Shown: piece after piece, positions 8,939-34,983 of the stretch
Numbering within the stretch: position 1 is the first letter of the stretch
Layout of the letters: every line of letters begins with the position of its first letter
Source: Planctomycetota bacterium
GTDB taxonomy: Bacteria > Planctomycetota > UBA1135 > UBA2386
DNA length: 37,341 bases
Direction: 5' to 3'
Assembly: GCA_036160175.1 (NCBI GenBank)
Contig: JAYYEE010000227.1
Location: forward strand, 1-37,341
Translations under genes and position numbers: made by a program
Notes under the pieces: model-generated
Told to the model about the DNA's origin: nothing
Seen by the model: the letters and a program-made list of their open reading frames with translations, nothing else
The model's database searches: none

Positions 8939-9991
8939 CTAGACCGGCGCGACGCGGATTTCGGTCGCTTTGATCGCGACCCAGACGTCACCACCATCGT
9001 CGAGGCCGAGCTCCTGGACCGCAGCCTCCGTGACTTCCGCGATGACGGGGAGCGCGCCGCCGACCCGGACACGCACACAGTCGACGCTGCGTTCGGTCCC
9101 GTCCACGGGAGCGCGCCACACGTTACGCGGAGATCCGGCCGGCCGCTCTCGGAAGAGCGCGACGGCGCGCGGGTGTAGGGTCGCGATCGCGGGCCCCTCG
9201 TGCGCAGTGCCAACCTGGACGCGAGCGCCGCCATCGACCGTGAGCGTGCGACCGCTGCAGACGCCGCGGATGCAATTCAGCCCGATCAGGTCGGCGACGT
9301 AGCGCGACGCCGGCCTACGGCTGAGCGCGTCGACGGTGCCGGCCTGCACGACGCGCCCGTTCTCGAGGACCGCGATGCGGTCGGCGAGCGCCAGCGCGTC
9401 GTCGAGATCATGCGTGACGACGACGCACGCGCCGCCGAACGCCTCAAGCTGACGTCGCAGCATGCGGCGTAGGGATAGTCGCGAAGAGGCGTCGGCGGCC
9501 GCGAGGGGTTCGTCCAGGAGCAGGGTCCCGGGCTTGGTCGCGAGCGCCCGCGCCAGCGCGACCCGCTGGGCCTGACCGCCGGAGAGCGCCGCTGGGTAGG
9601 CAGCGCCGCGCTCGGCTATCCCAACGCGCTCAAGCCACTTGTCGGCGACCGCGCGCGCGAGCGTGCGCGTGACGCCGCGGCTGCGGAGGCCGTACGCGAC
9701 GTTCTCGCGAATGGTCATGCGCGGGAAGAGCATGTGGTCTTGGAACACCACGCCGATGTCGCGCTGCTCTGGCGGCACGAACGCCCCGGGGCTGCCGTCG
9801 TCGACGAGGGCGCCGGCGAGCCGGATGTGGCCGTGATCAGCGCCACAGAGCCCGGCGATCGCGCGCAGCGTGGTCGACTTGCCCGCGCCGTTGGGGCCTA
9901 CGAGCGCGACCGTCTCGCCCGCTTTGACCTGCAGCGTCGCGGCGAGGGAGAAGGTCCCCAGCTGCATCGAAAAACGTGCGTCGAGGCTCAT
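8939..9991 (-). CDS. modC: Molybdate ABC transporter ATP-binding protein ModC with a C-terminal TOBE/Mop-like domain
   Basis: Walker A GPNGAGKST, signature LSGGQAQRVALARAL, Walker B LLLDEPLAA. ATG 9991 overlaps the modB stop (ATGA). Confidence 0.9.
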   Translation of the reverse strand: MSLDARFSMQLGTFSLAATLQVKAGETVALVGPNGAGKSTTLRAIAGLCGADHGHIRLAGALVDDGSPGAFVPPEQRDIGVVFQDHMLFPRMTIRENVAYGLRSRGVTRTLARAVADKWLERVGIAERGAAYPAALSGGQAQRVALARALATKPGTLLLDEPLAAADASSRLSLRRMLRRQLEAFGGACVVVTHDLDDALALADRIAVLENGRVVQAGTVDALSRRPASRYVADLIGLNCIRGVCSGRTLTVDGGARVQVGTAHEGPAIATLHPRAVALFRERPAGSPRNVWRAPVDGTERSVDCVRVRVGGALPVIAEVTEAAVQELGLDDGGDVWVAIKATEIRVAPV

Positions 9992-10779
9992 CGTCCGAAG
10001 AACCACTGGCGGCGGAGGAGGAACAAGATCGTCGCAGAGATCGCGAGCAGGACGACGCTGAGCGCCACCGCTGAGGACGGCTGGGACTCGAGCGCGTGGT
10101 AGACCGCTCGCGGCAGAGGGCGCGTGCGCCCATCGAAGCTCCCGGCGAACGTGATGGTCGCGCCAAATTCGCCGAGCGCGCGCGCCCACGCGACCAGCAA
10201 GCCAGCGCGAAGCGACGGCGCGATCATCGGCAGGGTGACCGTCAGGAACGCGCGCCAAGGCGAGGCGCCGAGCGTGGTCGCGGCGTCGGTGTAGCGGTGG
10301 TCAAAACTGCGCATCCCGCCCTCGACGGTGAGGACGAAGAACGGCATCGAGACGTAGGTGGTCGCCAGCACCACAGCGCTGCTCGAAAACGGGACCGTGA
10401 CGCCGAACCAGCTGTCTAGCGGTCCGCCGACGACACCGCTGGGCCCGAACGCAAGGAGCAGCGCGATCCCACCGACGATCGGCGGCAGGACCATCGGCAA
10501 GGTTGTCACGACGCGCACTGCGCTGCGGAGCGCGCCTGACCCTTGCGCGAGCCACGTGGCGAGCGGCAAGCCCATCGCGAAGCACAGCACCGTCGATAAG
10601 AGCGAGCACTCGAGCGACAACGCTAACGCCCGCAGCGTCTCGGCCGTCGTAAACAGCGCCATGAGCGCCGGCCATTCGACCTCTGCCGCGAGCGCGACGA
10701 GCGGCGCCGCGAACAGCAGCGCCGGCGCGGCGGCGATCGCTAGGATCCAGCTCGGCAGGTGCTTGCGGCGGTTATTCAT
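9988..10779 (-). CDS. modB: Molybdate ABC transporter permease ModB
   Basis: Multi-TM protein with the EAA-type loop DAATTLGASPWRAFLTVTLP and RALGEFGATITFAGS. ATG 10779 overlaps the modA stop (ATGA). Confidence 0.9.
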   Translation of the reverse strand: MNNRRKHLPSWILAIAAAPALLFAAPLVALAAEVEWPALMALFTTAETLRALALSLECSLLSTVLCFAMGLPLATWLAQGSGALRSAVRVVTTLPMVLPPIVGGIALLLAFGPSGVVGGPLDSWFGVTVPFSSSAVVLATTYVSMPFFVLTVEGGMRSFDHRYTDAATTLGASPWRAFLTVTLPMIAPSLRAGLLVAWARALGEFGATITFAGSFDGRTRPLPRAVYHALESQPSSAVALSVVLLAISATILFLLRRQWFFGR

Positions 10780-11543
10780 GGAGACGAGAACCCGTGCTCC
10801 GACAGGATGCGGCGGCCGTCCGGGCTGAGGACGAAGGCGATGAACTCCTGAGCGCCCGTCGCCTGCTCGCCGGTCGAGACCGTGACGATCGGATACGTCG
10901 CCTCGACGTTCAAGCGCGCGGGGATCGGGACGTTGTGCACTCGGCCGGCGGCCGCGAGCGCGTCGGATCGGTAGACCACGCCGGCGTCGGCGACGCCCAG
11001 CTCCACTTTGCTGACGACGGCGCGGACGCTGGGCTCATCTGACGCCGACCGGGCGGGCACGCCGGCGCGCTCCAGCAGCGCTCGCGCGTAGCGGCCGGCC
11101 GGGACCTGCGGAGCGCAGAGCAAGCAGGTGAGGTCTGGGCGCGCGAGATCTTCGACCGAGCGGATCGCCTTCGGGTTTCCCGGGCGCGTCACGATGGCGA
11201 GCGAGTTACTCGCGAATCGTCGTGGTTCGTCGGCCGTCAACCCAGCGTCGACGACCGCGTGCATCTGCAGTTGGTCTGCTGACGCGAAGACGTCTGCCGG
11301 CGCTCCTTGGCGTAGCTGCATGACGAGCTGCGGCGTCCCAGCGCAGTGAAGCTCGACCCGCAGTCCCGGCCTGGCCGCCGCGAAGCTCTGAACGAGCTCT
11401 TCAAAGGGCGCGGTCAGCGATGACGCCGCGAAGATCCGCACCGTGGGGCGCTCGTCCCCCGCGCAGCAGGCGACGGCCGCTGCGAGCGCGGCGACGCCGA
11501 GCGCGGCGCGGGTTCGTCGGGCTGTGGCGGGCTCGCGGGGCAT
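10776..11543 (-). CDS. modA: Molybdate ABC transporter periplasmic binding protein ModA
   Basis: A signal peptide is followed by VRIFAASSLTAPFEEL....GAPADVFASAD and ATYPIV, which is typical of ModA. Confidence 0.85.
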   Translation of the reverse strand: MPREPATARRTRAALGVAALAAAVACCAGDERPTVRIFAASSLTAPFEELVQSFAAARPGLRVELHCAGTPQLVMQLRQGAPADVFASADQLQMHAVVDAGLTADEPRRFASNSLAIVTRPGNPKAIRSVEDLARPDLTCLLCAPQVPAGRYARALLERAGVPARSASDEPSVRAVVSKVELGVADAGVVYRSDALAAAGRVHNVPIPARLNVEATYPIVTVSTGEQATGAQEFIAFVLSPDGRRILSEHGFSSP

Positions 11544-19554: not shown

Positions 19555-20592
19555 TCAGGGCTGGGTCCCGAGCTCGACCTTGTGGGCCGCGCCGATGACC
19601 TCGCGCACGTACCGAGGGACCCCGAAGCCCGGCAGGCGACGTCGGAGCTCGGCGATCAGCTCTAGGCCGCGCGCGACCGGGACCTCCCAGTGCTGGGCTC
19701 CCGTGACCGGGTCTAGCTGGTGGAGGTAGTAGGGCATCACGCGCGCGTCTAGCAAACGCTTGGACAGCTCGGTGAGCGTGTCGGCGTCGTCGTTGACGCC
19801 GCGGAGCAGCACGGTCTGGTTGAGTACGGGCACGCCGCTCTTCACCAGTCGCAGCAGGGCCGCGCTGCAGTCTTCGTCGAGCTCGTTGGGGTGGTTGCTG
19901 TGGACAACGACCGTCGGCGCTAGGCGCGTCGCGCGCAGCCAGCCGAGCAGCGCGTCGTCGACGCGGTCCGGGATCACGATGGGCAGGCGCGTATGGATGC
20001 GCAGCCGCCGCAGGTGGGGGATGTCCTCGAGTTGCGCGACCAGCTCGGCGAGCCACGGGTCGGGCCGCATCAGCGGATCCCCACCCGAGAGCAGCACCTC
20101 CTCTACCCCGGGGCTGCGCCGGAGCTCCTCGAGCGCGGGTCGCCACTGCGCCAGCCCGTTCGGGCTTTCGTCGTACGGGAACTCGCGTCGAAAGCAGTAG
20201 CGGCAAGCGACCGCGCAGACGCCGGCGACGATCAGCAAGGCCCGGCCGTCGTACTTCTGCAGCAACCCTGGCGCTCTCGAGGCGGCGAGGTCGCCGCACG
20301 GGTCGGCGCCGTAGCCCGCGGCGGGCGGGGACAGCTCGTCTTGCGTCGGCAGCACCTGCGCGAGCAGCGGGTCAGACGGGTCGCCTGGGCGCATCCGGCC
20401 GACGAGCGCCTCGGGCACCACCAGCGCGAAGCGATCGGCCGCGCGCCGTGCGGCCTCGCGTAAGGCCTGCGGCAGCTTCAGCCGGGCGATCAGCTCGTCA
20501 GGATCGCGAATCGCCCGCCGCAGCTGTTCGCGCCAATCGCAGCGCGCCGCGCCGGTCTGCTCGCTCGGTTCACTTGGGATTTGGCGTTCCAA
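19555..20592 (-). CDS. epmB: EF-P beta-lysylation protein EpmB (lysine 2,3-aminomutase-like radical SAM enzyme)
   Basis: Radical-SAM motif CAVACRYCFRR. Conserved PDEL...L, DPLL.QVLP and LLSGGDPL. TTG start at 20592. Confidence 0.85.
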   Translation of the reverse strand: MERQIPSEPSEQTGAARCDWREQLRRAIRDPDELIARLKLPQALREAARRAADRFALVVPEALVGRMRPGDPSDPLLAQVLPTQDELSPPAAGYGADPCGDLAASRAPGLLQKYDGRALLIVAGVCAVACRYCFRREFPYDESPNGLAQWRPALEELRRSPGVEEVLLSGGDPLMRPDPWLAELVAQLEDIPHLRRLRIHTRLPIVIPDRVDDALLGWLRATRLAPTVVVHSNHPNELDEDCSAALLRLVKSGVPVLNQTVLLRGVNDDADTLTELSKRLLDARVMPYYLHQLDPVTGAQHWEVPVARGLELIAELRRRLPGFGVPRYVREVIGAAHKVELGTQP

Positions 20593-20632
20593 TGGCGGAG
20601 TCGGGCTCGTTTCGATATTCGTATTCGCCGCT

Positions 20633-21205
20633 ATGGCTTCCTACGGCACGAGTGATTTTAAGAAGGGACTGAAGGTCCAGATCGAGAACGAACCCTACCT
20701 GATGGTCGACCTCGAGTTCATGAAGCCGGGGAAAGGCCAAGCGGTCTACCGCGTGCGGCTCAAGAGCCTGACCACTGGTCGCGTCGTGGACAAGAACTAT
20801 CGCAGCGGCGACTCGCTAGAGGCCGCGGACGTCGAAGAGAGGTCGATGCAGTTCCTCTACAAGGACGCGACCGACTTCCACTTCATGGACGGCGAGAGCT
20901 TCGAGCAGTTTCAGGTGGGCGCCGACGCGGTCGGCGACGCGGCGAAGTGGCTCAAGGATGAGATGGAGTGCGACGTCGTCATGTGGAACGGCGCGCCGAT
21001 CACGGTGACGCCGCCGGCGCACGTCGAGATGAAGGTGACCTACACCGAGCCTGGCGCGAAGGGGAACTCGACCGGCAACGTGCAGAAGCCGGCGACCGTC
21101 GAGACCGGCGCGGAGCTGATGGTGCCGATCTTCATCAACAACGACGACGTCGTCCGCGTCGACACGCGCACGGGCGAATACGTCGAGCGCGTCTCCAAAG
21201 GCTGA
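20633..21205 (+). CDS. efp: Elongation factor P
   Basis: MASYGTSDFKKGLKVQIENEPYLMVDLEFMKPGKGQA.. places the modification lysine (K34) in PGKGQA. 190 aa. Confidence 0.95.
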   Translation: MASYGTSDFKKGLKVQIENEPYLMVDLEFMKPGKGQAVYRVRLKSLTTGRVVDKNYRSGDSLEAADVEERSMQFLYKDATDFHFMDGESFEQFQVGADAVGDAAKWLKDEMECDVVMWNGAPITVTPPAHVEMKVTYTEPGAKGNSTGNVQKPATVETGAELMVPIFINNDDVVRVDTRTGEYVERVSKG

Positions 21206-21219
21206 GCCAGGGAGCTCGC

Positions 21220-22164
21220 TTGGCCGCCGATCAGATCGCGGAGTTGCGGCGCCGCGCCGGGCTGGTGGCGCAGGCGCGCCGGTTCTTCGACGAGCGCGGC
21301 GTGCTTGAGGTCACCACGCCGCTGCTCGGCGACGGCGTGGTGGTCGAGGAGCACATCGACCCGATCCCCTGCTTCGTGCGGTTGGGGCCGGGAGCGCCGG
21401 TGGAGCGCCGGCTATTGACCTCGCCGGAAGGGCCGATGAAGCGGCTGCTCGCCGCGGGCGCTGGCCCGATCTACCAATTTGCGCACGCGTTCCGGGACGG
21501 CGAGGTCGGTCGTCGGCACGCGGTCGAGTTCACGATGCTCGAGTGGTACCGCCCCGGCATCGACCACTACGCGCTGATGGACGAGGTGGAGGCGCTGGTT
21601 CAGGAGCTGTTGCCGAGCGCGGCGGGCGGGCCCTTCGACCGGGTCACCTACCGCGAGCTGTTTGTAGAGTTCGCGGCGGTCGACCCGTTCGCGGTCACGC
21701 GGGCAGAAGCGCTGAACGCGTGCGGCGCGCTCGGCGTCGACGTGCCGGACAGCTACGACGGCGGGACGCTCGACGAGGCGCTCGACCTGCTCCTGGTCAG
21801 CTACATCGAGCCGCGGCTCGCGGGGCGCGGGCCGCTGTTCGTGCACGGCTACCCGCCGTCGCAGGCCGCGCTCGCGCAGGTGCGCGTCCCGGCTGGCGGG
21901 GGACCCGCGACGGCCGACCGCTTCGAGCTCTACGTTGGCGGCGTCGAGCTCGCGAACGGCTACCACGAGCTGGCAGACGCGGTCGAGCAGCGGCGGCGCT
22001 TCGAGGCGGCCAACCGCGCCAGGGAGGCCGCTGGGCGCCGCGCGCTGCCGCTCGACGAGCCGCTGCTCGCGTCGCTCGCTGCGGGATTTCCGCCGTGCGC
22101 GGGCGTCGCGCTCGGCTTCGACCGGTTGCTGATGCTGGCTGCGGGTCGGGATCACATCGCCTGA
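21220..22164 (+). CDS. epmA: EF-P--(R)-beta-lysine ligase EpmA (GenX/PoxA, LysRS class II paralog)
   Basis: aaRS class II motifs FRDGEVGRRHAVEFTMLEWY and GVALGFDRLLML. TTG 21220, just after the efp stop, is the assumed start. The 5' part of the long ORF overlaps efp out of frame. Confidence 0.85.
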   Translation: MAADQIAELRRRAGLVAQARRFFDERGVLEVTTPLLGDGVVVEEHIDPIPCFVRLGPGAPVERRLLTSPEGPMKRLLAAGAGPIYQFAHAFRDGEVGRRHAVEFTMLEWYRPGIDHYALMDEVEALVQELLPSAAGGPFDRVTYRELFVEFAAVDPFAVTRAEALNACGALGVDVPDSYDGGTLDEALDLLLVSYIEPRLAGRGPLFVHGYPPSQAALAQVRVPAGGGPATADRFELYVGGVELANGYHELADAVEQRRRFEAANRAREAAGRRALPLDEPLLASLAAGFPPCAGVALGFDRLLMLAAGRDHIA

Positions 22165-25441: not shown

Positions 25442-28400
25442 TCACTTGGCGTTCAGCGCGCCGTCTCGCCAGCGGTCGGCGAGCGAATAGACCGGCTCGC
25501 AGAGCAGGTCGACGACGGGCATCTCTGCGAGTAGTTCTTTGTCGAACGAGGGCTCGGTCTCGGTCACGGCGTCGGCGAGCGCTTGGTAACGGTTCCGATA
25601 GCCGCCGAGCACGCCGCAGAGCGCATCGGCCCCCAAGCGGTCATGAAAGCGCACGTGGAGCAGCGTCACCCCGACCGCGCGGTGGCCGTGCACCTCGGGG
25701 ACGATGATGACGGTGCGGTCATCGCTGCGGCCTCGCGCCACCATCAGGCGGCGCTCACTCGCCACGAGGTGCTTGGTCCCACGGAGCGTCGGGTTGGCCT
25801 CTGTCCGCGACGGGAAGTCGGCCGCGACCCCGCGCCGGTCGACGACCCGCGCGGTCGCGCTCTGCTCGTCGTCGCCATGATCGATCCGATAGCGCGTGCT
25901 GCCGAGGACTCCGCAGACCGCCGGGTCGAGGCTCGCGAGCGCCCGCAGATCCTCATATCCGAGGTGGTCGCGGGCGGCCCCTGCCGCAAGCACCTCCTGC
26001 ACCAGCGACGCGGTCAACATGGCTTCGTCGCTGCGCGAGATCCCCACGGTCACGGTCTTGGCTTGGTGCTTGATCGCGTCGACCGGTCGCGTGAGCTCGT
26101 CGATCGCGGTGGTCAGGGCCTCGGTCAGGCGGTCGACGACCGCTCCCGGCGCGCCGGGCTCGCCGAACTCGACCGGGTACGCGTCGAGCGGCGTCAGCTC
26201 CAGCGCGTAGTTGCCCAGCGACGTCAGTCGCGCAGCGGTGCGCGCCTCGAGCGTGCCGTCGTAGCGACCATTGAGCAGGTCGCCGCGGAAGGCCTCCCAG
26301 TGCGGGCGGAGCGCAGGCGCGAGCGCGCCGAGCACGCTCGTGGGCGAGTCCTCAGCGCCGAAGGTCGCTTCGATCACGCCGCGCATGCGGCGCAGCGGCG
26401 CCGCGAGCTCGTCGATGGCGAGCGCCGCGCGATAGCCGAACAGGTGGCCGGCCATCGTCGACAAGATGAAGGCCAGCGCCGGATGCGCGGGCGGGACCTC
26501 GATGACGCCGTCGGCGTCGTCGAACCGGGGTCCGCCGCGCGTCGTGATCACGATCGGGGACGCCTTGTGGGCCTTGTAGATCGCGACCTCCTTGCGGACG
26601 TCGTCTGCGGTCGACCCCGTCATGCCTGCCGCACAACACAGGATCATCGGCTCGGACGAGAGGTCGATGTGCTTCTTGTCCTCGGTCGCGTCGCAAGCGA
26701 TCGACTTGTAGCAGAGCTCCGACAGCTTGATACGGACCTCTGCCGCCGCGACCTGGTTGCGGCCGTTGCCGACCAGCGCCCAATAACGCCGCTGCGGCGC
26801 GTAGGCGCGCGCCAGATCGCGGATCTTCACGTCTTGTGCGAGGACCTCGCGCATCGCGTCAGGCAGCGCGCTCAGCGCGCTGAGCAGGGCGTGTTCTTCG
26901 CGGTCGTCGTGGCACCCGACCGCGCGCGCCAGCGCCAGCGCCAGCAGCTGACCCGCGGCGCACTGCGCGTAAAACGCCTTCGTGCTCGCGACGCTCATCT
27001 CGACGTCGCGACCGTCGGACGTGTACAGCACGCCGTCAGCCTTTTCGGTCAGGTCGCTGCCTCGGCGGTTGACGATGGCCAGGACAGCGGCGCCGCGGCT
27101 GCGCGCCAGGTCTACCGTGCGGTTCGTGTCGGTGGTGGTCCCGGACTGCGAGATGGCGACGAGCAGGGTGTCGCCCATCTCTGCGCCGAGGCCGAAGCCG
27201 GAGAGCTCCGTCGCCGGGATCGCTTCGACCTGGACGTCCGCGCGCGCGAGCGCGTCGCGGATCGCGGACGCGACCGCGCGTCCAGCGACCGCTGCGGTGC
27301 CCTGGCCGATGACCAGGATGCGCCGGACGCGTCCAGCCGCCAGGTCTGACGCCACCGCAGCGGGCAGCGACGCGTCGGGCAGCTCGACGCGGGCGCGACC
27401 GTCGACGGTGACGATGCGGCCTCGGAGCGTCTTTTGCAGCGAACTCGGCGACTCGCCGATCTCCTTCAGCAAGTAGTGCGGGTGATCGCCGCGGTCGATG
27501 TCGCGGGTCGTCACCTCGGCCGTGGTCAGGCTCGCCGCGTCGATCGGGAGCTCGCTGCCGTCGTAGGCGGCGCGCGTGACGCCAGCGAGCTCGCCGGCCC
27601 CGTCGCGTCTGAGCATGACCACTTGGCCGCGTGACCCTGTCGGGTTGTCGGGGTTGCCAGGGGTCTCGCCGTCGAGCCGCAGGTAACGGTCGCATTCTTC
27701 TACGACGCCGTAAGGTTCGCTGGCGACGACGAACGTATCTTCCGCGAAGCCGACGTAGAGCGCTTGCCCGGAGCCGCGCAAGGCGAGCGCGAGTTGGTCT
27801 GGGTGCGCGGTCGCCGCGGCGCCGATCGCGACCGATCCTTCGAGGCGCGTCACCGTGCGCGAGAACGCGTCCGCGAGGTCGTGCCCCTGACGCATTTGTC
27901 GGGAGACCATGGCCGGGATGACCTTTGCGTCGGTCGTGATCGCCGTGTGGAGCTTCAGCCCGTCTTGCTGGGCTAGGTCTTGGTGGTTGTCGACGTCACC
28001 GTTGAGCGCGCCGAGGACGTAGGGGCCGCTGCTGTCGTGCGCTTCCTCGTGATTGAGGGGGTGCGCGTTCGGCTGGCTGATGATGCCGACGCTCGCCCAG
28101 CGCGTGTGCCCGAGGACCAGGGTCTCTGCGGCTGGCTCGCGCATGGCGGTTTGCAGCAGGGTGTCCCGTCGCATGGCCTCGCGCAGCGCGGCGACGTTGT
28201 CGCCGAGCTCGCCGATCTCGGCGGCGTGCTTGTAGACGAAGTTGAGGCTGCCGTCGGCGCATCGCACCGCGCCGTCTTGGAACAGCGGGTCGTCATCGCG
28301 CGCAGCGAGCAGCTGCTGGATCGTGGGGGACTCTATGTCTAGACCGCTGACGATGATCGCGGCGCCGGCGGAGTCGCGGCCGCGGACCTCGAGGCGGTCG

Positions 28401-28870
28401 AGCGCGGCGAGCGCGGCTTCGATCGAAGAGAACGCGGCCGCGGCGCGCTGGTCAGGCAAGTCGCCGCCTGCGAGGTCTCGCACAGCCTCGGCGTGCGGGA
28501 CGCGGTCGCGGCGCAGGGCCCAGACCTGGTCCTTCAGGCGGACCATCTCGGCGTTGCGGCGTTCGACGTCGTCGCCCGCTGCGGCGCCGTCACGATCAGC
28601 TTCGACGGCGTGGGCGCGCCGATGGAGCGCGTCGGCGCGTTCGCGGAGCTCGGCGATCAGGCCCTCATGCTGCAGCAGGGCCCAGAGCCCGGGCACGCCA
28701 CGGAGCTCTCGATCGAGCGCTGCGAGCGCGTCGGCGGCGTCCGTGATCCCATCTACGGTCGGCGCGTCCGTGAGCGCCCCCTCGGCTGCAGCGAGCAGCG
28801 CGCGCAGGCGTTCTCGGCTCGGGGCCGCGCGCCGGCTTTGCCGGCGCAGCACGGCGATGATGCCACACAT
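25442..28870 (-). CDS. Giant GlmS-like protein: class II (Ntn) glutamine amidotransferase plus two SIS domains, with three additional modules (1142 aa)
   Basis: MCGII (nucleophile Cys2). LDRLEVRGRDSAG comes only after an insert of about 135 aa. Also LGHTRWASVG and NGDVDNH. SIS1: ILVIGQGTA..VAISQSGTTTDT..SVASTKAF. SIS2: YWALVGNGRNQVAAAEVRIKLSE. A GlmS-tail-like KTVTVG is followed by about 230 further aa. Confidence 0.8.
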   Translation of the reverse strand: MCGIIAVLRRQSRRAAPSRERLRALLAAAEGALTDAPTVDGITDAADALAALDRELRGVPGLWALLQHEGLIAELRERADALHRRAHAVEADRDGAAAGDDVERRNAEMVRLKDQVWALRRDRVPHAEAVRDLAGGDLPDQRAAAAFSSIEAALAALDRLEVRGRDSAGAAIIVSGLDIESPTIQQLLAARDDDPLFQDGAVRCADGSLNFVYKHAAEIGELGDNVAALREAMRRDTLLQTAMREPAAETLVLGHTRWASVGIISQPNAHPLNHEEAHDSSGPYVLGALNGDVDNHQDLAQQDGLKLHTAITTDAKVIPAMVSRQMRQGHDLADAFSRTVTRLEGSVAIGAAATAHPDQLALALRGSGQALYVGFAEDTFVVASEPYGVVEECDRYLRLDGETPGNPDNPTGSRGQVVMLRRDGAGELAGVTRAAYDGSELPIDAASLTTAEVTTRDIDRGDHPHYLLKEIGESPSSLQKTLRGRIVTVDGRARVELPDASLPAAVASDLAAGRVRRILVIGQGTAAVAGRAVASAIRDALARADVQVEAIPATELSGFGLGAEMGDTLLVAISQSGTTTDTNRTVDLARSRGAAVLAIVNRRGSDLTEKADGVLYTSDGRDVEMSVASTKAFYAQCAAGQLLALALARAVGCHDDREEHALLSALSALPDAMREVLAQDVKIRDLARAYAPQRRYWALVGNGRNQVAAAEVRIKLSELCYKSIACDATEDKKHIDLSSEPMILCCAAGMTGSTADDVRKEVAIYKAHKASPIVITTRGGPRFDDADGVIEVPPAHPALAFILSTMAGHLFGYRAALAIDELAAPLRRMRGVIEATFGAEDSPTSVLGALAPALRPHWEAFRGDLLNGRYDGTLEARTAARLTSLGNYALELTPLDAYPVEFGEPGAPGAVVDRLTEALTTAIDELTRPVDAIKHQAKTVTVGISRSDEAMLTASLVQEVLAAGAARDHLGYEDLRALASLDPAVCGVLGSTRYRIDHGDDEQSATARVVDRRGVAADFPSRTEANPTLRGTKHLVASERRLMVARGRSDDRTVIIVPEVHGHRAVGVTLLHVRFHDRLGADALCGVLGGYRNRYQALADAVTETEPSFDKELLAEMPVVDLLCEPVYSLADRWRDGALNAK

Positions 28871-31083: not shown

Positions 31084-33519
31084 ATGCTTTCTCGACTTCG
31101 GCTGATGTGGTGCCTGCTGGTGACGTTGACGACGTCGCTGTTCGCGCAGGACGATCCCAAGTTCGTGCTCAAAGCCTCGCTTGAGCCCGCGACGGCGGCG
31201 CCCGGTGAGGCTGTGATGCTCGTGCTGCGCGCGACGACGGCTGCTGGTTGGCACGCCTACGGCACTTTGGAAACTGGCAACATCCCGGTCTCTCTCGACA
31301 CGGCAGCGCTTGAGCTGACCGGCCTGGAGCGCGCGGGCGAGGCGGACATCCCAGGCGGGTTGCAGGAGGTGTCGCCTTACGGGACGACCTATCCGCTGCC
31401 GGAGTCGTTCCGCGTGACGGTGCCGCTCAAGGTCGCGGCGGGCGCGACCGGCGCGCTCCGCGTCGCGGGCGGGCTGGGCTACCAGATCTGCATGCAGGGA
31501 TCGTGCGAGCAGCCGAACACCGCCGCGTTCGAGGCGACCGGGGAGGTCGCCGCAGCGGCGCCGGCGAGCAGCGCCGCCGTGCAGGAGCCGCCGCCGCCGA
31601 TCCCGGTGCCGGGGCTCGGCACGGTGCCAGGGCTGATGCTCGGCGGCGACGAGAAGGTGGCCGTGACCGCGAAGTTTGAACCTGCGACGGCGCGCGCCGG
31701 CGAGGTCACGACGCTGGTGCTCGACGTCAACGTCATCGACGGGTGGCACGCCTACGGCACCAAAGAGACCGGTCAGATCCCCGTCGAATACGCGCAGGAC
31801 AAGCAGGACGTCGGCAGCCTCGCGTTCGAGGGCGACCCGGTGGTGCCGCCGGGAGACCCGGTCGAGGTCTTCGACACCGTGCAGTATCAGCTGCCGCACC
31901 ACTTCGAGGTTCGACAGGCGTTCCGCGTCCCTACAGACGCGGCGCCGCGCGAGGTCACCATCGGCGGCGTGCTCGACTACCAGATCTGCAACGAGGTCGG
32001 CTGCGACCCGCCGGCAGAGGCGGAGTACGAGGCGACGCTGACGATCGAAGCGGGCGCCGCGCGCGCGGCGCAGTCGGAGGCCCCCAAGGCTACCGATCAC
32101 GCCGGCGACGACGAGGGCGTCGTGGACCCGGCCGACCCGTTCGGCAGCGGGGGGGCGCTGATCCTAGCCAGCATCGGCGGCGGCCTATTCGCGCTCGCGA
32201 TGCCGTGCACGTATCCGATGATCCCGATCACATTCAGCTTCTTCACCAAGCAGGCGGAGAAGGCCGGCGGCAACGTGCTGCCGCTGACGATCACCTACGG
32301 GCTGGGCATCATCGCGATGTTCGTGTTCGTCGGGGTCGCGTTGTCGGCGGTGATCATCGACGTCGTCAACCACTGGGCGACCAACGCCGTGATCGGCGCG
32401 ATGTTCTTCTTCTTCGCCGCGGTGCTGTTTGGATGGGTCAACCTCAACCCGCCCCAGTTCTTGCAGCGGCTGGCGACCAAGGCGCAGATGTCGGCGGCGG
32501 GCGCGCCCAGCGGCGGCTCTGGCTTGACGCTCGGCGGCCTCAGCGGCGTGTTCTTCATGGGCGCGACGCTGGTGTTGACCTCGTTCACGTGCACGGCGCC
32601 GATCGTCGGCTCGCTGATCGGCGGCATCGCCAAGCACGGCACCGCCAAGGTGGCGGTCGGCATGGGCATCTTCGGCCTGACGATGGCGATCCCGTTCATG
32701 GCGCTGTCGCTCGCCCCGACGAAGGTCAAGGCGATGCCCAAGTCGGGCGAGTGGATGGAGACGCTGAAGATCTCGCTCGGCTTCGTCGAGCTGGCGGCGG
32801 CGTTCAAGTTCGTGTCGATGGTCGACATCTACTTCGGCTGGGACGCCCTGCCGCGCGAGCTGTTCCTGATGCTGTGGGCCGCGGTCTTCGGGCTGTGGGC
32901 GCTCTACCTGTTCGGGGTGCTGCGCAAGGCCGGCACGCCGAGCATGGGCGTCGGCAACGGCAGGATGGCCGGCGGCATGATCGTCACGCTGCTCGCGACC
33001 TACTTCCTGTTCGGCGCGATGGGCAACCGGATGGACAAGATCATGACCGGCTTCGTGCCGGCCTACTCCAACCGCATCGTGATGAAGGGCGAGGGGAGCG
33101 GCCCCAAGGTCGAGGGCCACGTGATCGTCAAGGACGACCCGCAGAAGGCGATCGAGGTCGCCAAGGCCGAGGACAAGCTCGTGCTCTACAACTTCACCGG
33201 CTTCAACTGAAACAGCTGCCGGATCATGGAAGACAACATCTTCCTGGAGCAGGCGGTCGCCTCGCTCATGAAGCAGCACCTGGTCGAAGCCCGACTTCAC
33301 ACCGACTCGCCCAAGCACCTGACGGACGAGCAGTTCGCCAACAACCGCAAGGCGCAGGCCGAGCTGGCGGGCGTGAAGACCAACCCCTACTTCGTCATGG
33401 TCGACCCGAAGACCGGCGAGAAGGTAGGCGAGTTCGCGCTGTCTGGCGGCTTCGGCGCCTGGCCGGGTAAGTGGACCGAGTTCTTGCAGCGCATGGTCAA
33501 GAAGACCGGCCGCCAGTAG
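31084..33519 (+). CDS. DsbD-family thiol:disulfide interchange protein, predicted selenoprotein (Sec709 encoded by TGA 33208-33210), 811 aa if read through
   Basis: Signal peptide. Two DsbD-N/DsbC-like domains (..GWHAYGT..YQICMQGSCEQP and ..GWHAYGT..YQICNEVGCDPP). CcdA/DsbD membrane core with AMPCTYP and FTCTAP. ORFs 31084..33210 and 33226..33519 are in the same frame. Read-through yields a complete thioredoxin fold, LVLYNFTGFN-U-NSC-RIMEDNIF...GVKTNPYFVMVDPKTGE. Confidence 0.75.
33215..33257 (+). promoter_or_regulatory. Candidate bacterial SECIS hairpin downstream of the in-frame UGA
   Basis: Apical stem GGAAGA (33228-33233) / UCUUCC (33239-33244) with loop CAACA. A bulged U27 sits over UCA/UGG. 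Lower stem is CUGCC (33216-20) / GGCGG (33252-56). The loop lies about 24-28 nt 3' of the UGA. It was folded by eye and not scored against a model. Confidence 0.4.
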
Positions 33520-33644: not shown

Positions 33645-33998
33645 ATGCCTGGCATGACCAAGGGCGGAAACTCAGATCTGGCGCGCAGCTGCACGGACCT
33701 CGTGCTGCTGACCCTGCTCCAGCAGGAGCCGATGTACGGCTACCAGATCCTGACCACGCTGCAGGACCGCGGGAACGGCGAGTTCCGCTTCAAGCAGGGC
33801 ACGCTCTATCCCGTGCTCTACCGGATGGAGCGCGAGGGCTGGATCGAGGCGACCTGGGAGGACCCGCCTGAGGGCAAGCGGCGCAAGGTCTACCGCGTCA
33901 CCGCTGACGGCCGCAAGGAGCTCGGCAAGCGCGCCGCGCAGTGGCTGCGGTTCAACGACGCGGTGCGCTCGATCCTGAAGGAGGCTGGCCATGCCTAG
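33645..33998 (+). CDS. PadR-family transcriptional regulator
   Basis: LVLLTLLQQEPMYGYQILTTLQDRGNGEFRFKQGTLYPVLYRMEREGWIEATWE....RKVYRVTADGRKEL is the canonical PadR winged helix. An alternative ATG lies at 33654. Confidence 0.85.
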   Translation: MPGMTKGGNSDLARSCTDLVLLTLLQQEPMYGYQILTTLQDRGNGEFRFKQGTLYPVLYRMEREGWIEATWEDPPEGKRRKVYRVTADGRKELGKRAAQWLRFNDAVRSILKEAGHA

Positions 33999-34983
33999 CG
34001 TCGAGCAGCGGGTGCAGGCGTTCTTCGCGTCACTAGAGAAGGCGCTCGGCGGGCCGCACGAGCAGAGCGACGCGGTGCAGGCCGAGCTGCGCGCAGACCT
34101 GGAGGCGCAGGTCGGCGACGCGGTCGCGGCCGGCGCAGACCGAGACGCGGCGTGGAGCGACGCGCTTCAAGCGATGGGGGAGCCTGAGGCGCTCGCGCGC
34201 TCGATGCGCGGCGCGCTGCCGCCGTCGATGCCGCGGACATGGGTGCGCAACCTGCGAATGATCGGCGCCGGCCTGGTCGTGGCGTGGACGATGACGATCC
34301 TGTTCCAGTTCCGCAGCTGGGACTACGGAATCGATCTGCGCATGACGTCGATCGTGCTGGGGGTGCACCTGCCGCTCGCGCTGCTGCTCTGGCCGGGCGT
34401 GATCTGGCGCTGGAACCCGCTGTTCCACACGGGCTCTTCGCTTGCGTTCATCTTCGGGCTCTTGCTGCTGGATGCGTGGGCGCGGAACACGACGATCACC
34501 CACGAGCTAGGCGCGGAGCTCGCCGTAGCGGGGGAGGCGAGCGAGGCAGGCACGGCGGCGGCGCCGCTGCTGCCGAGTTGGGAGTGGTCGGACCTAGTCC
34601 CCTGGCTGTTCGGGGCGCTGGTCGTGCTGACGTTCTGGCTGATGCAGCGGCGCAGGCAGCGCTGGCAGGCGCTCGCCTTGACGGTGGGATTGGTGGCGCC
34701 GATCGAGGCCGTCTACCAGATCGAGGAGGGCTTCTTCCGCGCCGAGGCGCAGCACGCAGCGGCCTGGGTCGAGGCCCGGTATGAAGAGCGCGGGGTGCTG
34801 CCGACCAGCGAGGAGTTCGCGCAGGAATACGAGGCGCTGTGGCTGTCGCGGCTCCACTACTACCCGAAGAAAGGAACGGACCCGGACGGCTCCCCTGCCT
34901 GGGCGCTGCACTGGGCGCGCGCGACGCAGCACAGCAGCGGGCTGGGCTACCGCTCGGACGGCAGGTTCTGGGGCAACGACTGA
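33991..34983 (+). CDS. Membrane protein partnered with PadR (N-terminal DUF1700/HAAS-like helical region, about 5 TM helices)
   Basis: The ATG overlaps the padR stop by 8 nt. The N-terminal soluble helices (VQAFFASLEKAL...ELRADLEAQV) are followed by hydrophobic helices. The family call is tentative. Confidence 0.55.
   Translation: MPSVEQRVQAFFASLEKALGGPHEQSDAVQAELRADLEAQVGDAVAAGADRDAAWSDALQAMGEPEALARSMRGALPPSMPRTWVRNLRMIGAGLVVAWTMTILFQFRSWDYGIDLRMTSIVLGVHLPLALLLWPGVIWRWNPLFHTGSSLAFIFGLLLLDAWARNTTITHELGAELAVAGEASEAGTAAAPLLPSWEWSDLVPWLFGALVVLTFWLMQRRRQRWQALALTVGLVAPIEAVYQIEEGFFRAEAQHAAAWVEARYEERGVLPTSEEFAQEYEALWLSRLHYYPKKGTDPDGSPAWALHWARATQHSSGLGYRSDGRFWGND

What the first reader, a model, noticed from the sequence alone, without database searches (positions are those of the whole stretch)
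33181..33519. In-frame UGA at the first Cys position of a thioredoxin CxxC motif: predicted selenocysteine-containing DsbD-family protein split into two ORFs
ORF 31084..33210 ends at TGA 33208-33210. ORF 33226..33519 is in the same frame, and the 15 nt between them are sense codons. Read-through gives ..AEDKLVLYNFTGFN-[UGA]-NSCRIMEDNIFLEQ..LVEARLHTD..GVKTNPYFVMVDPKTGEKVG... This is a complete thioredoxin-fold domain: beta1 LVLYNF, a redox motif U-N-S-C where C-x-x-C is expected, then a Pro-containing loop and a beta-hairpin. The upstream part has the DsbD/CcdA membrane core with both conserved Cys (AMPCTYP, FTCTAP), so a redox-active C-terminal Trx domain is the expected architecture. Without read-through the protein stops inside beta1/alpha1. 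The 97-aa ORF would then lack both beta1 and the first redox residue, and it has no Shine-Dalgarno-like sequence before ATG 33226. Sec-for-Cys replacement in thiol-disulfide oxidoreductases is an established type of bacterial selenoprotein, and standard gene callers mis-annotate such loci.
Basis: partly seen in the sequence, partly recalled or inferred. Interest (0 to 1): 0.85.

Follow-up and report, generated by a model that had tools for sequence, protein, structure and literature searches.

The report
Selenocysteine-containing DsbD reductase, mis-split gene
One 811-residue membrane disulfide reductase (DsbD type) of a marine Planctomycetota bacterium most likely carries selenocysteine, encoded by an in-frame UGA, in place of the first active-site cysteine, so gene callers wrongly split it in two; this is a sound but fairly ordinary addition to a known class of bacterial selenoproteins.

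Summary
ORF 31084-33210 ends at TGA 33208-33210, and the same frame continues (N-S-C-R-I-M...) to TAG 33519.

- All 30 related loci fetched carry TGA at this exact codon, down to about 25-30% identity, followed by x-x-Cys-Arg.
- The Cys and Arg codons change synonymously. The 15 nt "spacer" is therefore translated.
- Contiguous homologues with the same architecture have Cys at this position (FTGF-x-C-x-x-C-R-x-M-E).
- A model of a Cys homologue puts this residue at the N-terminus of helix 1 of a thioredoxin fold. The best fold match is a DsbD-like C-terminal domain.
- Downstream lies a conserved hairpin with an invariant GGUC tetraloop, the same loop as in the E. coli fdhF SECIS. It has compensatory changes and is more stable than synonymous recodings. 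It sits 44 nt after UGA, outside the usual 16-37 nt.
- TGA is the normal stop for at least 16 other genes in the window.

A UxxC "thiol:disulfide interchange protein" selenoprotein family has been listed since 2004 and 2008. This is therefore a new, widely mis-annotated member of a known kind.

The parts
31084..33519 (+). Complete read-through coding sequence of 811 codons: a DsbD-family protein with Sec at residue 709
   Evidence: frame and stops; domains; same layout in 30 other loci.
31084..31149 (+). Probable N-terminal signal peptide (MLSRLRLMWCLLVTLTTSLFAQ)
   Evidence: Read from the sequence. This is an inference; no predictor was run.
31480..31506 (+). YQIC-x4-C redox motif of the first DsbD_N-like (alpha) domain
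   Evidence: position. One search reports two PF11412 stretches.
31675..32022 (+). Second DsbD_N (alpha) domain. It contains the YQIC-x4-C motif at 31978-32004.
   Evidence: (PF11412, residues 198-313, whole-protein E 1.2e-11).
32161..32817 (+). DsbD transmembrane (beta) core with the two conserved Cys, in AMPCTYP (32197-32217) and FTCTAP (32584-32601)
   Evidence: PF02683, E 1.3e-16, above threshold; NF001419 DsbD, 95.9 bits against a 330-bit cut-off.
33142..33516 (+). C-terminal thioredoxin-fold (gamma-like) domain. It spans the UGA: beta-1 (LVLYNFT) lies before it, and helix 1 and the rest lie after it.
   Evidence: PF03190, PF13098, PF13899; PDB 3f9u, E 1.1e-5; the alignment crosses the UGA; model of Cys homologue P0050 and fold matches.
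33208..33210 (+). In-frame UGA, the predicted selenocysteine codon (U709) and first position of the U-N-S-C redox motif
   Evidence: TGA in 31 of 31 loci and 21 of 21 distinct contexts. Cys at this column in 13 long homologues.
33217..33219 (+). TGC, the resolving Cys712 of the UxxC motif
   Evidence: Cys in 21 of 21 contexts, with TGC (13) and TGT (8) both used.
33228..33244 (+). Hairpin 1: GGAAGA-CAACA-UCUUCC, with its loop 23 nt after the UGA
   Evidence: 97% paired; one A-U to G-C double change, in L029. One search shows it is no more stable than synonymous recodings (median p 0.14). Its loop sequence is not conserved.
33247..33267 (+). Hairpin 2, the best SECIS candidate: GAGCAGGC-GGUC-GCCU(C)GCUC. 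The GGUC tetraloop is at 33255-33258, 44 nt after the UGA.
   Evidence: four pairs changed on both sides; pair 47-58 is AU in 12 and CG in 7. (GGUC in the loop in 19 of 19; median p 0.014 against synonymous recodings). (synonymous diversity lowest here). (E. coli fdhF SECIS has the same GGUC loop). (only 5 such hairpins in 74.7 kb).
33215..33220 (+). 5' arm (GCUGCC) of an alternative long-range helix with 33252-33257 (GGCGGU). This helix would enclose hairpin 1 and exclude hairpin 2.
   Evidence: 94.7% paired; only one-sided, wobble-compatible changes, so it is neither supported nor excluded.

Best explanation
The two ORFs are one gene. It encodes an 811-residue DsbD-type transmembrane disulfide reductase with these parts: a signal peptide, two periplasmic DsbD_N (alpha) domains each with a C-x4-C pair, an eight-helix-type beta core with two membrane Cys, and a C-terminal thioredoxin-fold gamma-like domain.

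UGA 33208-33210 is decoded as selenocysteine. The gamma-domain active site is therefore U709-N-S-C712 rather than C-x-x-C.

The following steps are inferred:
- SelB carrying Sec-tRNA(Sec) is recruited by the structured mRNA just downstream. The most likely binding site is hairpin 2 (33247-33267), whose invariant GGUC tetraloop matches the SelB-binding loop of E. coli fdhF.
- Hairpin 1 acts as a compact spacer.
- In the protein, Sec occupies the exposed N-terminal (nucleophilic) position of the motif at the start of helix 1.
- By analogy with E. coli DsbD, electrons pass from cytoplasmic thioredoxin to the membrane Cys pair, then to the U/C pair of the gamma domain, then to the alpha domains, then to periplasmic substrates. 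Sec speeds up the thiol-disulfide (selenenylsulfide) exchange steps.
For: Shown:
1. TGA occurs at the same codon in the window and in all 30 related loci with readable upstream sequence, which gave 21 distinct contexts. These loci come from independent marine and freshwater metagenomes and from MAGs mostly labelled Planctomycetota. Some members are barely detectable by profile, such as L029/P0105 at E 3.5e-7.
2. The five codons between the UGA and the ATG are under protein-level selection. Cys is present in 21 of 21 contexts (TGC 13, TGT 8) and Arg in 21 of 21 (CGC 12, CGG 5, CGT 4).
3. A Sec/Cys pair exists. Thirteen contiguous homologues have C-x-x-C-R at this place. They include proteins of the same architecture: P0047 (760 aa, HDFTGFFCSNCRAME), P0052 (804 aa) and P0103 (910 aa).
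4. Of the 150 best cluster representatives, 121 are ORFs of about 90 aa that begin at the conserved Met just after the motif. This is the same truncation signature.
5. The fold spans the UGA. PDB 3f9u aligns DFTGYGCVNCRKME with NFTGFN[U]NSCRIME. The AlphaFold model of Cys homologue P0050 has pLDDT above 90 over the domain and places the first Cys right after beta-1, at the N-terminus of helix 1. The best fold hits are 3f9u, thioredoxins, DsbH and the E. coli DsbD C-terminal domain.
6. RNA evidence:
   - The two-hairpin structure is 93.9% paired, with 5 pairs changed on both sides, and 0 of 500 shuffles reach this.
   - Hairpin 2 keeps GGUC in its loop in 19 of 19 sequences and beats synonymous recodings (median p 0.014).
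   - Synonymous diversity drops to 0.12-0.15, against 0.3-0.4 over most of the gene, at codons +8 to +23.
   - The tripeptide A-V-A (GCG GUC GCC, the hairpin apex) occurs in 80 of 121 UGA-type but 1 of 13 Cys-type homologues (Fisher p 5.7e-5).
   - The E. coli fdhF SECIS has the same GGUC loop.
7. TGA is an ordinary stop here. At least 16 Pfam-supported genes in the window end in TGA.
8. Complete Sec machinery is documented in several Planctomycetes (PMC4807772).
Against: - No selA, selB, selD or tRNA-Sec gene is in the window or in any fetched locus. The rest of the genome could not be searched.
- The GGUC loop lies 44 nt after the UGA. It is 18 nt in fdhF, and the published bacterial SECIS model allows 16-37 nt (PMC13188914).
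- Hairpin 1 has canonical spacing, but its loop is not conserved and it is largely explained by the amino-acid sequence.
- One divergent subgroup (L028, L031) lacks the GGUC hairpin.
- An alternative pairing that excludes hairpin 2 fits the alignment about equally well.
- There is no protein-level evidence.
Confidence: 0.88

Rival explanations
1. There are two real genes. Translation terminates at the UGA and gives a DsbD without a functional gamma domain. A separate 97-residue protein is started at ATG 33226, possibly by termination-reinitiation.
For: Every gene caller splits the locus this way. The Met at 33226 is nearly invariant, ATG in 19 and GTG in 2 of 21 contexts.
Against: - The break falls between beta-1 and helix 1 of a single thioredoxin fold. 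Neither piece would fold or be redox-active alone.
- The 15 nt "spacer" is under amino-acid-level selection, with Cys and Arg invariant but synonymous codons in use.
- Contiguous Cys homologues exist.
- The Met belongs to the family motif C-x-x-C-[RK]-x-M-E, which is also present in the unsplit proteins.
- No Shine-Dalgarno-like sequence precedes the ATG.
Confidence: 0.04
2. The UGA is read through without selenium. It would be decoded as Cys, Trp or Gly by a near-cognate or suppressor tRNA, or under a reassigned code.
For: Sec machinery was not shown in this genome. Read-through as Cys would also give an active CxxC.
Against: - TGA ends at least 16 well-supported genes in the window, so the code is not reassigned.
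- A single-base change would turn TGA into TGC or TGT. Yet TGA is kept in 31 of 31 loci and apparently in 121 clusters, which argues for selection for something Cys cannot give.
- A conserved hairpin with the fdhF-type GGUC loop accompanies the UGA form specifically.
Confidence: 0.06
3. The gene is a pseudogene from a TGC-to-TGA nonsense mutation, or the TGA is a sequencing or assembly error.
For: None beyond the stop codon itself.
Against: - The same TGA occurs in 30 independent assemblies.
- Downstream amino-acid identity is 59-100% in the window's clade.
- The substitution pattern is coding-like on both sides, and no relative has additional disruptions.
Confidence: 0.01

Closest known systems
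"Thiol:disulfide interchange protein" / "Trx-like 2" selenoprotein family
   Same: - It is listed as a predicted bacterial selenoprotein with a UxxC motif in a thioredoxin-like domain.
- The review PMC13188914 (Table 1) assigns it PF13098 and credits Kryukov & Gladyshev 2004. That paper was not held here and was not read.
- The GOS study PMC2398784 assigns it cd02953 and reports 22 Sec and 2,098 Cys sequences. From my own knowledge, cd02953 is the DsbD-gamma model.
- The window's domain also hits PF13098 weakly.
   Different: - The representative sequence (WP_011366075.1) could not be obtained. Neither direct homology nor its domain architecture (full DsbD or soluble protein) was tested.
- The organisms listed for that family in PMC1794560 are Geobacter and Syntrophus, not Planctomycetota.
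- The window's domain scores best against PF03190 (DsbH/DUF255-like).
- No NCBIfam selenoprotein model covers the domain.
E. coli DsbD (alpha-beta-gamma electron transfer catalyst)
   Same: - It has the same order of modules: N-terminal DsbD_N, a DsbD_TM core with two Cys, and a C-terminal thioredoxin-fold domain with the redox motif at the start of helix 1.
- The DsbD gamma structures 2fwe, 4ip6 and 1vrs_D are among the fold matches.
   Different: - There are two tandem alpha domains instead of one.
- The gamma domain is closer to the 3f9u/DsbH/Thioredoxin_7 branch.
- The NCBIfam DsbD score is far below the cut-off (95.9 against 330 bits).
- The first active-site residue is Sec, not Cys.
E. 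coli fdhF bacterial SECIS
   Same: It is a stem-loop in the coding region downstream of the UGA, with an apical GGUC tetraloop closed by a G+C-rich stem.
   Different: - The loop starts 44 nt after the UGA, against 18 nt in fdhF.
- A second hairpin lies in between.
- Binding by SelB was not tested.
TsoB, the rhodanese/DsbD fusion-like selenoprotein (NF045694)
   Same: It shares the DsbD transmembrane core (72.8 bits over residues 359-578).
   Different: - The score is far below the 805-bit cut-off.
- The Sec motif is different (UxxxxU in a rhodanese-type region, per PMC13188914) and there is no rhodanese domain here.
- This protein is not a member of that family.

Membership tests
Bacterial selenoprotein gene (SelB/SECIS-dependent UGA decoding) | In-frame UGA conserved among orthologues, with coding sequence continuing in frame | tested here: met
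   TGA in 31 of 31 loci. The downstream frame is conserved at 59-100% amino-acid identity in the window's clade.
Bacterial selenoprotein gene (SelB/SECIS-dependent UGA decoding) | Cys-containing homologues align with the UGA (a Sec/Cys pair) | tested here: met
   Thirteen long homologues have C-x-x-C-R at the aligned position. PDB 3f9u aligns its first Cys with the UGA.
Bacterial selenoprotein gene (SelB/SECIS-dependent UGA decoding) | Downstream SECIS that fits the published model: loop 3-9 nt, stem 4-16 bp, G in the first two loop positions, 16-37 nt from the UGA, MFE at or below -7.5 kcal/mol (PMC13188914) | tested here: inconclusive
   Hairpin 2 meets the loop (GGUC), stem (8 bp) and energy (-12.3) criteria and shows covariation, but it lies 44 nt from the UGA. 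Hairpin 1 meets the spacing (23 nt) but has no conserved G in its loop and folds at -6.7 kcal/mol.
Bacterial selenoprotein gene (SelB/SECIS-dependent UGA decoding) | The genome encodes selA, selB, selD and tRNA-Sec | not testable with these tools
   None is in the window or the fetched loci.
Bacterial selenoprotein gene (SelB/SECIS-dependent UGA decoding) | Selenium shown in the protein (75Se labelling or mass spectrometry) | not testable with these tools
   This needs an experiment.
DsbD family protein-disulfide reductase | Transmembrane core (PF02683) with two conserved Cys | tested here: met
   PF02683 scores 61.1 bits against a 27.1-bit cut-off. AMPCTYP and FTCTAP are present.
DsbD family protein-disulfide reductase | Periplasmic N-terminal DsbD_N domain with a Cys pair | tested here: met
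   PF11412 scores 45.1 bits against a 25-bit cut-off, in two stretches. There are two YQIC-x4-C motifs.
DsbD family protein-disulfide reductase | C-terminal thioredoxin-fold domain with C-x-x-C at the start of helix 1 | tested here: met
   The fold is confirmed through Cys homologue P0050 and the alignment to 3f9u. The motif here is U-x-x-C.
DsbD family protein-disulfide reductase | Reaches the NCBIfam DsbD (NF001419) trusted score | tested here: not met
   It scores 95.9 bits against a 330-bit cut-off. It is a distant DsbD-family relative, not an E. coli-type DsbD equivalog.
"Thiol:disulfide interchange protein" / Trx-like 2 selenoprotein family | UxxC motif in a PF13098/cd02953-type thioredoxin-like domain | tested here: inconclusive
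   The UxxC motif is met. PF13098 scores 18.7-23.2 bits against a 27-bit cut-off.

The most novel reading that the evidence does not exclude
Two linked possibilities remain open.

First, the Sec form, not the Cys form, may be the predominant state of a large DsbD subfamily centred on Planctomycetota. In that case export of periplasmic reducing power in these abundant aquatic bacteria would depend on selenium. The basis is that 121 of the 150 best 50%-identity cluster representatives show the truncation signature.

Second, the recoding signal may be a distinct class of bacterial SECIS. It would be a tandem-hairpin element whose fdhF-type GGUC loop sits 44 nt after the UGA, outside the 16-37 nt window used by SECIS-based gene finders. 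Its apex also encodes the family's conserved P-A-V-A-G / Q-A-V-A-S peptide, so RNA structure and protein sequence would have co-evolved.
Probability: 0.4. Interest if true: 0.55.

Novelty: new member of a known kind. Interest (0 to 1): 0.4.

Why it matters
- **Annotation.** Public records split this gene into a truncated DsbD and a "hypothetical" protein of about 97 residues. Examples are the NCBI MAG proteins named, and the roughly 120 representative clusters. One profile plus a UGA rule would repair hundreds of gene models. No NCBIfam selenoprotein model currently covers the domain.
- **Biology.** This would place selenium at the key relay step of the pathway that carries electrons across the membrane to periplasmic disulfide isomerases, cytochrome c maturation and peroxide defence, in a phylum rich in exported Cys-rich proteins.
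- **Mechanism.** The long UGA-to-loop spacing with an intervening hairpin gives a natural test of how strictly SelB needs the spacing defined in E. coli.

None of this overturns current understanding. Sec-for-Cys replacement at the first position of CxxC in thioredoxin-fold oxidoreductases is the commonest kind of bacterial selenoprotein.

Tried and rejected
- **Rfam.** Searches at gathering thresholds on the whole window and at E up to 10 on 33100-33400 gave nothing relevant. The two weak hits, a miRNA and a lncRNA, are noise. No bacterial SECIS family matched, so this says nothing either way.
- **tRNA scan.** ARAGORN found no tRNA or tRNA-Sec in the window or in loci L001-L027.
- **Window annotation.** Pfam on 30 window ORFs found no sel genes.
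- I used the post-UGA alignment A1 and the Cys homologue P0050 instead.
- **Hairpin 1 as the SECIS.** I rejected it as the main determinant. Its loop sequence varies, it is no more stable than synonymous recodings, and it is weakened in L022, L024 and L025. It is, however, strengthened to 8 bp in L028 and L031.
- **Register-B version of hairpin 2.** This version (no bulge) fits only the PS/LS/LR-type sequences. The two registers share the four apical pairs.
- **Alternative long-range helix 33215-20 / 33252-57.** It could not be excluded.
- **Literature.** Kryukov & Gladyshev 2004 could not be read because it is not held. The architecture of the originally described "thiol:disulfide interchange" selenoprotein is therefore unverified.
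- **Resources.** The third homologous-protein search was left unused, because no query could tie Sec machinery to the same genome.
Full report
**Observation**

The window (69% G+C) contains a 708-codon ORF, 31084..33210, that ends at TGA 33208-33210. The same frame continues with AAC AGC TGC CGG ATC and then ATG 33226, which opens a 97-codon ORF ending at TAG 33517-33519. The read-through product is 811 residues and reads ...LVLYNFTGFN-U-NSCRIMEDNIF....

With U replaced by C, Pfam finds:
- two DsbD_N stretches (PF11412, 45.1 bits);
- the DsbD transmembrane core (PF02683, residues 360-578, 61.1 bits);
- a thioredoxin-like C-terminus at residues 687-776. The hits are PF03190, PF13098 and PF13899, near or below their thresholds.

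A composition scan of both strands found only one in-frame TGA in the window with coding-type GC3 on both sides, and it is this one.

**Conservation of the stop codon**

- A search with the 184 residues around the site returned 16 proteins at 55-98% identity. Thirteen of them end at exactly ...FTGFN or ...FTGFS.
- A search with the post-UGA part returned 19 proteins of 81-104 residues (nearly all 96-99). All of those aligned begin at the Met that follows the motif.
- I fetched DNA for 20 loci from genome and metagenome collections and 11 more by exact protein look-up. One locus (L020) had no upstream sequence.
- Every one of the 30 loci with upstream sequence has TGA at the same codon, followed by x-[S/N/T/A]-C-R-x-[M/V]-E.
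- Across 21 distinct sequence contexts the Cys codon is TGC (13) or TGT (8), and the Arg codon is CGC, CGG or CGT, while the amino acids never change. The 15 nt that gene callers treat as intergenic are therefore translated and under purifying selection.
- The genome records are mostly labelled Planctomycetota.

**Cys homologues**

A profile of the post-UGA region, run against 1.84 billion cluster representatives, found 155 proteins at E of 0.001 or better, of which the best 150 were examined.
- Thirteen are long proteins with C-x-x-C-R at the aligned position. Three have the same architecture of two alpha domains, membrane core and thioredoxin domain: P0047 of 760 aa (HDFTGFFCSNCRAME), P0052 of 804 aa (NLTGFTCNNCRMVE) and P0103 of 910 aa (NFTGLVCSNCRVME).
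- Others carry a different N-terminal region in place of the DsbD modules. That region was not run against domain models.
- 121 of the 150 are ORFs of about 90 residues that begin at the conserved Met. Four of these distant ones were checked at the DNA level and all have the TGA. A fifth, for which no DNA was returned, shows the same 15-nt gap after an upstream ORF.
- This Sec/Cys pairing is the standard SECIS-independent criterion for a selenoprotein gene (PMC13188914).

**Fold**

- PDB entry 3f9u is the C-terminal domain of an exported cytochrome c biogenesis-related protein of Bacteroides fragilis. It aligns across the UGA at E 1.1e-5, with DFTGYGCVNCRKME opposite NFTGFN[U]NSCRIME.
- The window's own read-through could not be submitted for modelling. 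I therefore modelled the Cys homologue P0050 with a 36-sequence alignment. The domain has pLDDT above 90. Beta-1 (LLIDNFT) is followed directly by the first Cys at the N-terminus of helix 1.
- Foldseek ranks 3f9u first. Thioredoxins, DsbH-type domains and the C-terminal domain of E. coli DsbD (2fwe, 4ip6, 1vrs_D) follow.
- Termination at the UGA would cut a single thioredoxin fold between beta-1 and helix 1.
- The conserved Met-Glu after the motif is part of the family signature C-x-x-C-[RK]-x-M-E. It is not evidence for an independent start.

**The recoding signal**

RNAalifold on 13 sequences predicts two adjacent hairpins closed by a short helix. On 19 distinct sequences this structure is 93.9% paired, with five pairs changed on both sides, and none of 500 column shuffles reaches any of the measures.

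Hairpin 2 (33247-33267, GAGCAGGC-GGUC-GCCU(C)GCUC) carries most of the signal:
- Pair 47-58 is A-U in 12 sequences and C-G in 7.
- The stem changes register in the divergent clade, and in L029 it reads CCCCGGC-GGUC-GCCGGGG. The GGC-GGUC-GCC apex stays fixed.
- It keeps GGUC in the loop in 19 of 19 sequences.
- It is more stable than synonymous recodings of the same peptide (mean z -2.2, median p 0.014). Hairpin 1 is not (median p 0.14).
- Synonymous diversity is at its minimum for the 250 codons examined at codons +8 to +23 after the UGA (0.12-0.15, against 0.3-0.4 over most of the gene).
- The apex encodes Ala-Val-Ala. This tripeptide occurs in 80 of 121 UGA-type representatives, often as P-A-V-A-G, which spells CCGGC-GGUC-GCCGG. 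It occurs in only 1 of 13 Cys-type proteins (Fisher p 5.7e-5). This fits a nucleotide-level constraint that exists only when the UGA is present.
- I fetched the E. coli fdhF SECIS to check my recollection. Its apex is GCA-GGUC-UGC.
- GGUC-looped hairpins with at least four contiguous Watson-Crick pairs are rare in the window, 5 in 74.7 kb of both strands.

Caveats on the signal:
- The loop begins 44 nt after the UGA. In fdhF it begins 18 nt after, and the published bacterial SECIS model allows 16-37 nt.
- Hairpin 1 lies in between. Its loop is 23 nt from the UGA but is not conserved in sequence.
- An alternative helix, 33215-20 with 33252-57, fits equally well but shows only one-sided changes.
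- The L028/L031 subgroup has an 8-bp hairpin 1 and no GGUC hairpin.

My reading is that hairpin 2 is the SelB-binding element and hairpin 1 a compact spacer. This is an inference.

**Excluding the alternatives**

- TGA is an ordinary stop codon in this genome. At least 16 Pfam-supported genes in the window end with it, so the code is not reassigned.
- Pseudogenisation and sequencing error are excluded by the conservation across 30 independent assemblies and the absence of other disruptions.
- A two-gene arrangement is contradicted by the fold, by selection on the "spacer", and by the contiguous Cys homologues.
- Selenium-independent read-through cannot be formally excluded. It would not explain why a codon one mutation away from Cys is retained everywhere together with a dedicated hairpin.

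**What could not be shown**

No selA, selB, selD or tRNA-Sec lies in the window or the fetched flanks. The literature documents complete Sec machinery in several Planctomycetes: two Porphyra-associated isolates, Gemmata obscuriglobus and Isosphaera pallida (PMC4807772).

**Comparison with what is known**

- Sec at the first position of C-x-x-C in thioredoxin-fold oxidoreductases is the commonest type of bacterial selenoprotein (PMC13188914).
- A "thiol:disulfide interchange protein" with UxxC is in that review's list (PF13098), credited there to Kryukov & Gladyshev 2004.
[quoted passage not shown] From my own knowledge, cd02953 is the DsbD-gamma model.
- In sequenced genomes that family was reported from Geobacter and Syntrophus (PMC1794560).
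- I could not obtain its representative sequence or the 2004 paper. Identity of family and of architecture is therefore untested.
- The 119-family inventory of 2026 lists no full-length DsbD selenoprotein other than TsoB, a rhodanese/DsbD fusion with a different motif.
- NCBIfam has no selenoprotein model that covers this domain.
- Public records annotate the pieces as truncated DsbD plus a hypothetical protein.

**Verdict**

It is a new and widely mis-annotated member of a known kind. Two features are of moderate interest: the apparent dominance of the Sec form in this DsbD subfamily, and a SECIS candidate with non-canonical spacing whose apex doubles as a conserved peptide motif.

Noticed in passing
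window 33253-33264 (codons A-V-A-S), and proteins P0036-P0185: The conserved peptide P-A-V-A-G / Q-A-V-A-S of the UGA-type proteins is the translation of the hairpin-2 apex (CCGGC-GGUC-GCCGG). The motif is relaxed in Cys-type homologues, where A-V-A occurs in 1 of 13 against 80 of 121. This looks like an RNA structure shaping a protein motif.
   Followed up: partly
proteins P0048, P0051, P0054: Some long homologues of the gamma-like domain have lost one or both redox residues (FNSSSGRL, FQCGNARL, FNCAGSRI). They carry a different N-terminal region in place of the DsbD modules. They may be redox-inactive or single-Cys variants.
   Followed up: no
L001 and L002: Two loci are 98-100% identical to the window's post-UGA protein region. 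One record is labelled "candidatus Brocadiaceae" and the other "Luminiphilus sp." (which I recall to be a gammaproteobacterial genus), while the other near-identical genome records are labelled Planctomycetota. Mis-binning or mislabelling of short contigs is likely.
   Followed up: no
window 19555-22164: This looks like an EF-P modification cluster. EF-P (20633-21205, +) is followed by a class II lysyl-tRNA-synthetase-like ORF (within 20968-22164, +; EpmA-like). A divergent radical SAM gene (19555-20592, -; possibly EpmB-like) lies alongside. The first two ORF calls overlap, so the second probably starts later.
   Followed up: no
window 8939-11543 (- strand): This is a molybdate/tungstate-type ABC transporter. 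It comprises a periplasmic binding protein (PF13531, 10776-11543), an unscanned ORF assumed to be the permease (9988-10779), and an ATPase with a TOBE domain (8939-10258).
   Followed up: no
window 33654-34983 (+): Directly downstream of the DsbD gene lies a PadR-family regulator, followed with overlapping stop and start by a 330-residue protein with an N-terminal HAAS domain. This neighbourhood is not conserved in the related loci examined. There, HtrA-like trypsin/PDZ proteases (L024, L026) or a sulfatase (L029) follow instead.
   Followed up: partly
window 25442-28870 (-): A very long (1142 aa) protein has a glutamine amidotransferase domain and a SIS domain (GlmS-like modules). Large regions of it have no Pfam match.
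   Followed up: no
window 33215-33220 with 33252-33257: An alternative 6-bp helix would enclose hairpin 1 and sequester the GGU of the hairpin-2 loop. It stays pairable in 94.7% of cells through C-to-U wobble changes. It may be a competing conformer.
   Followed up: partly
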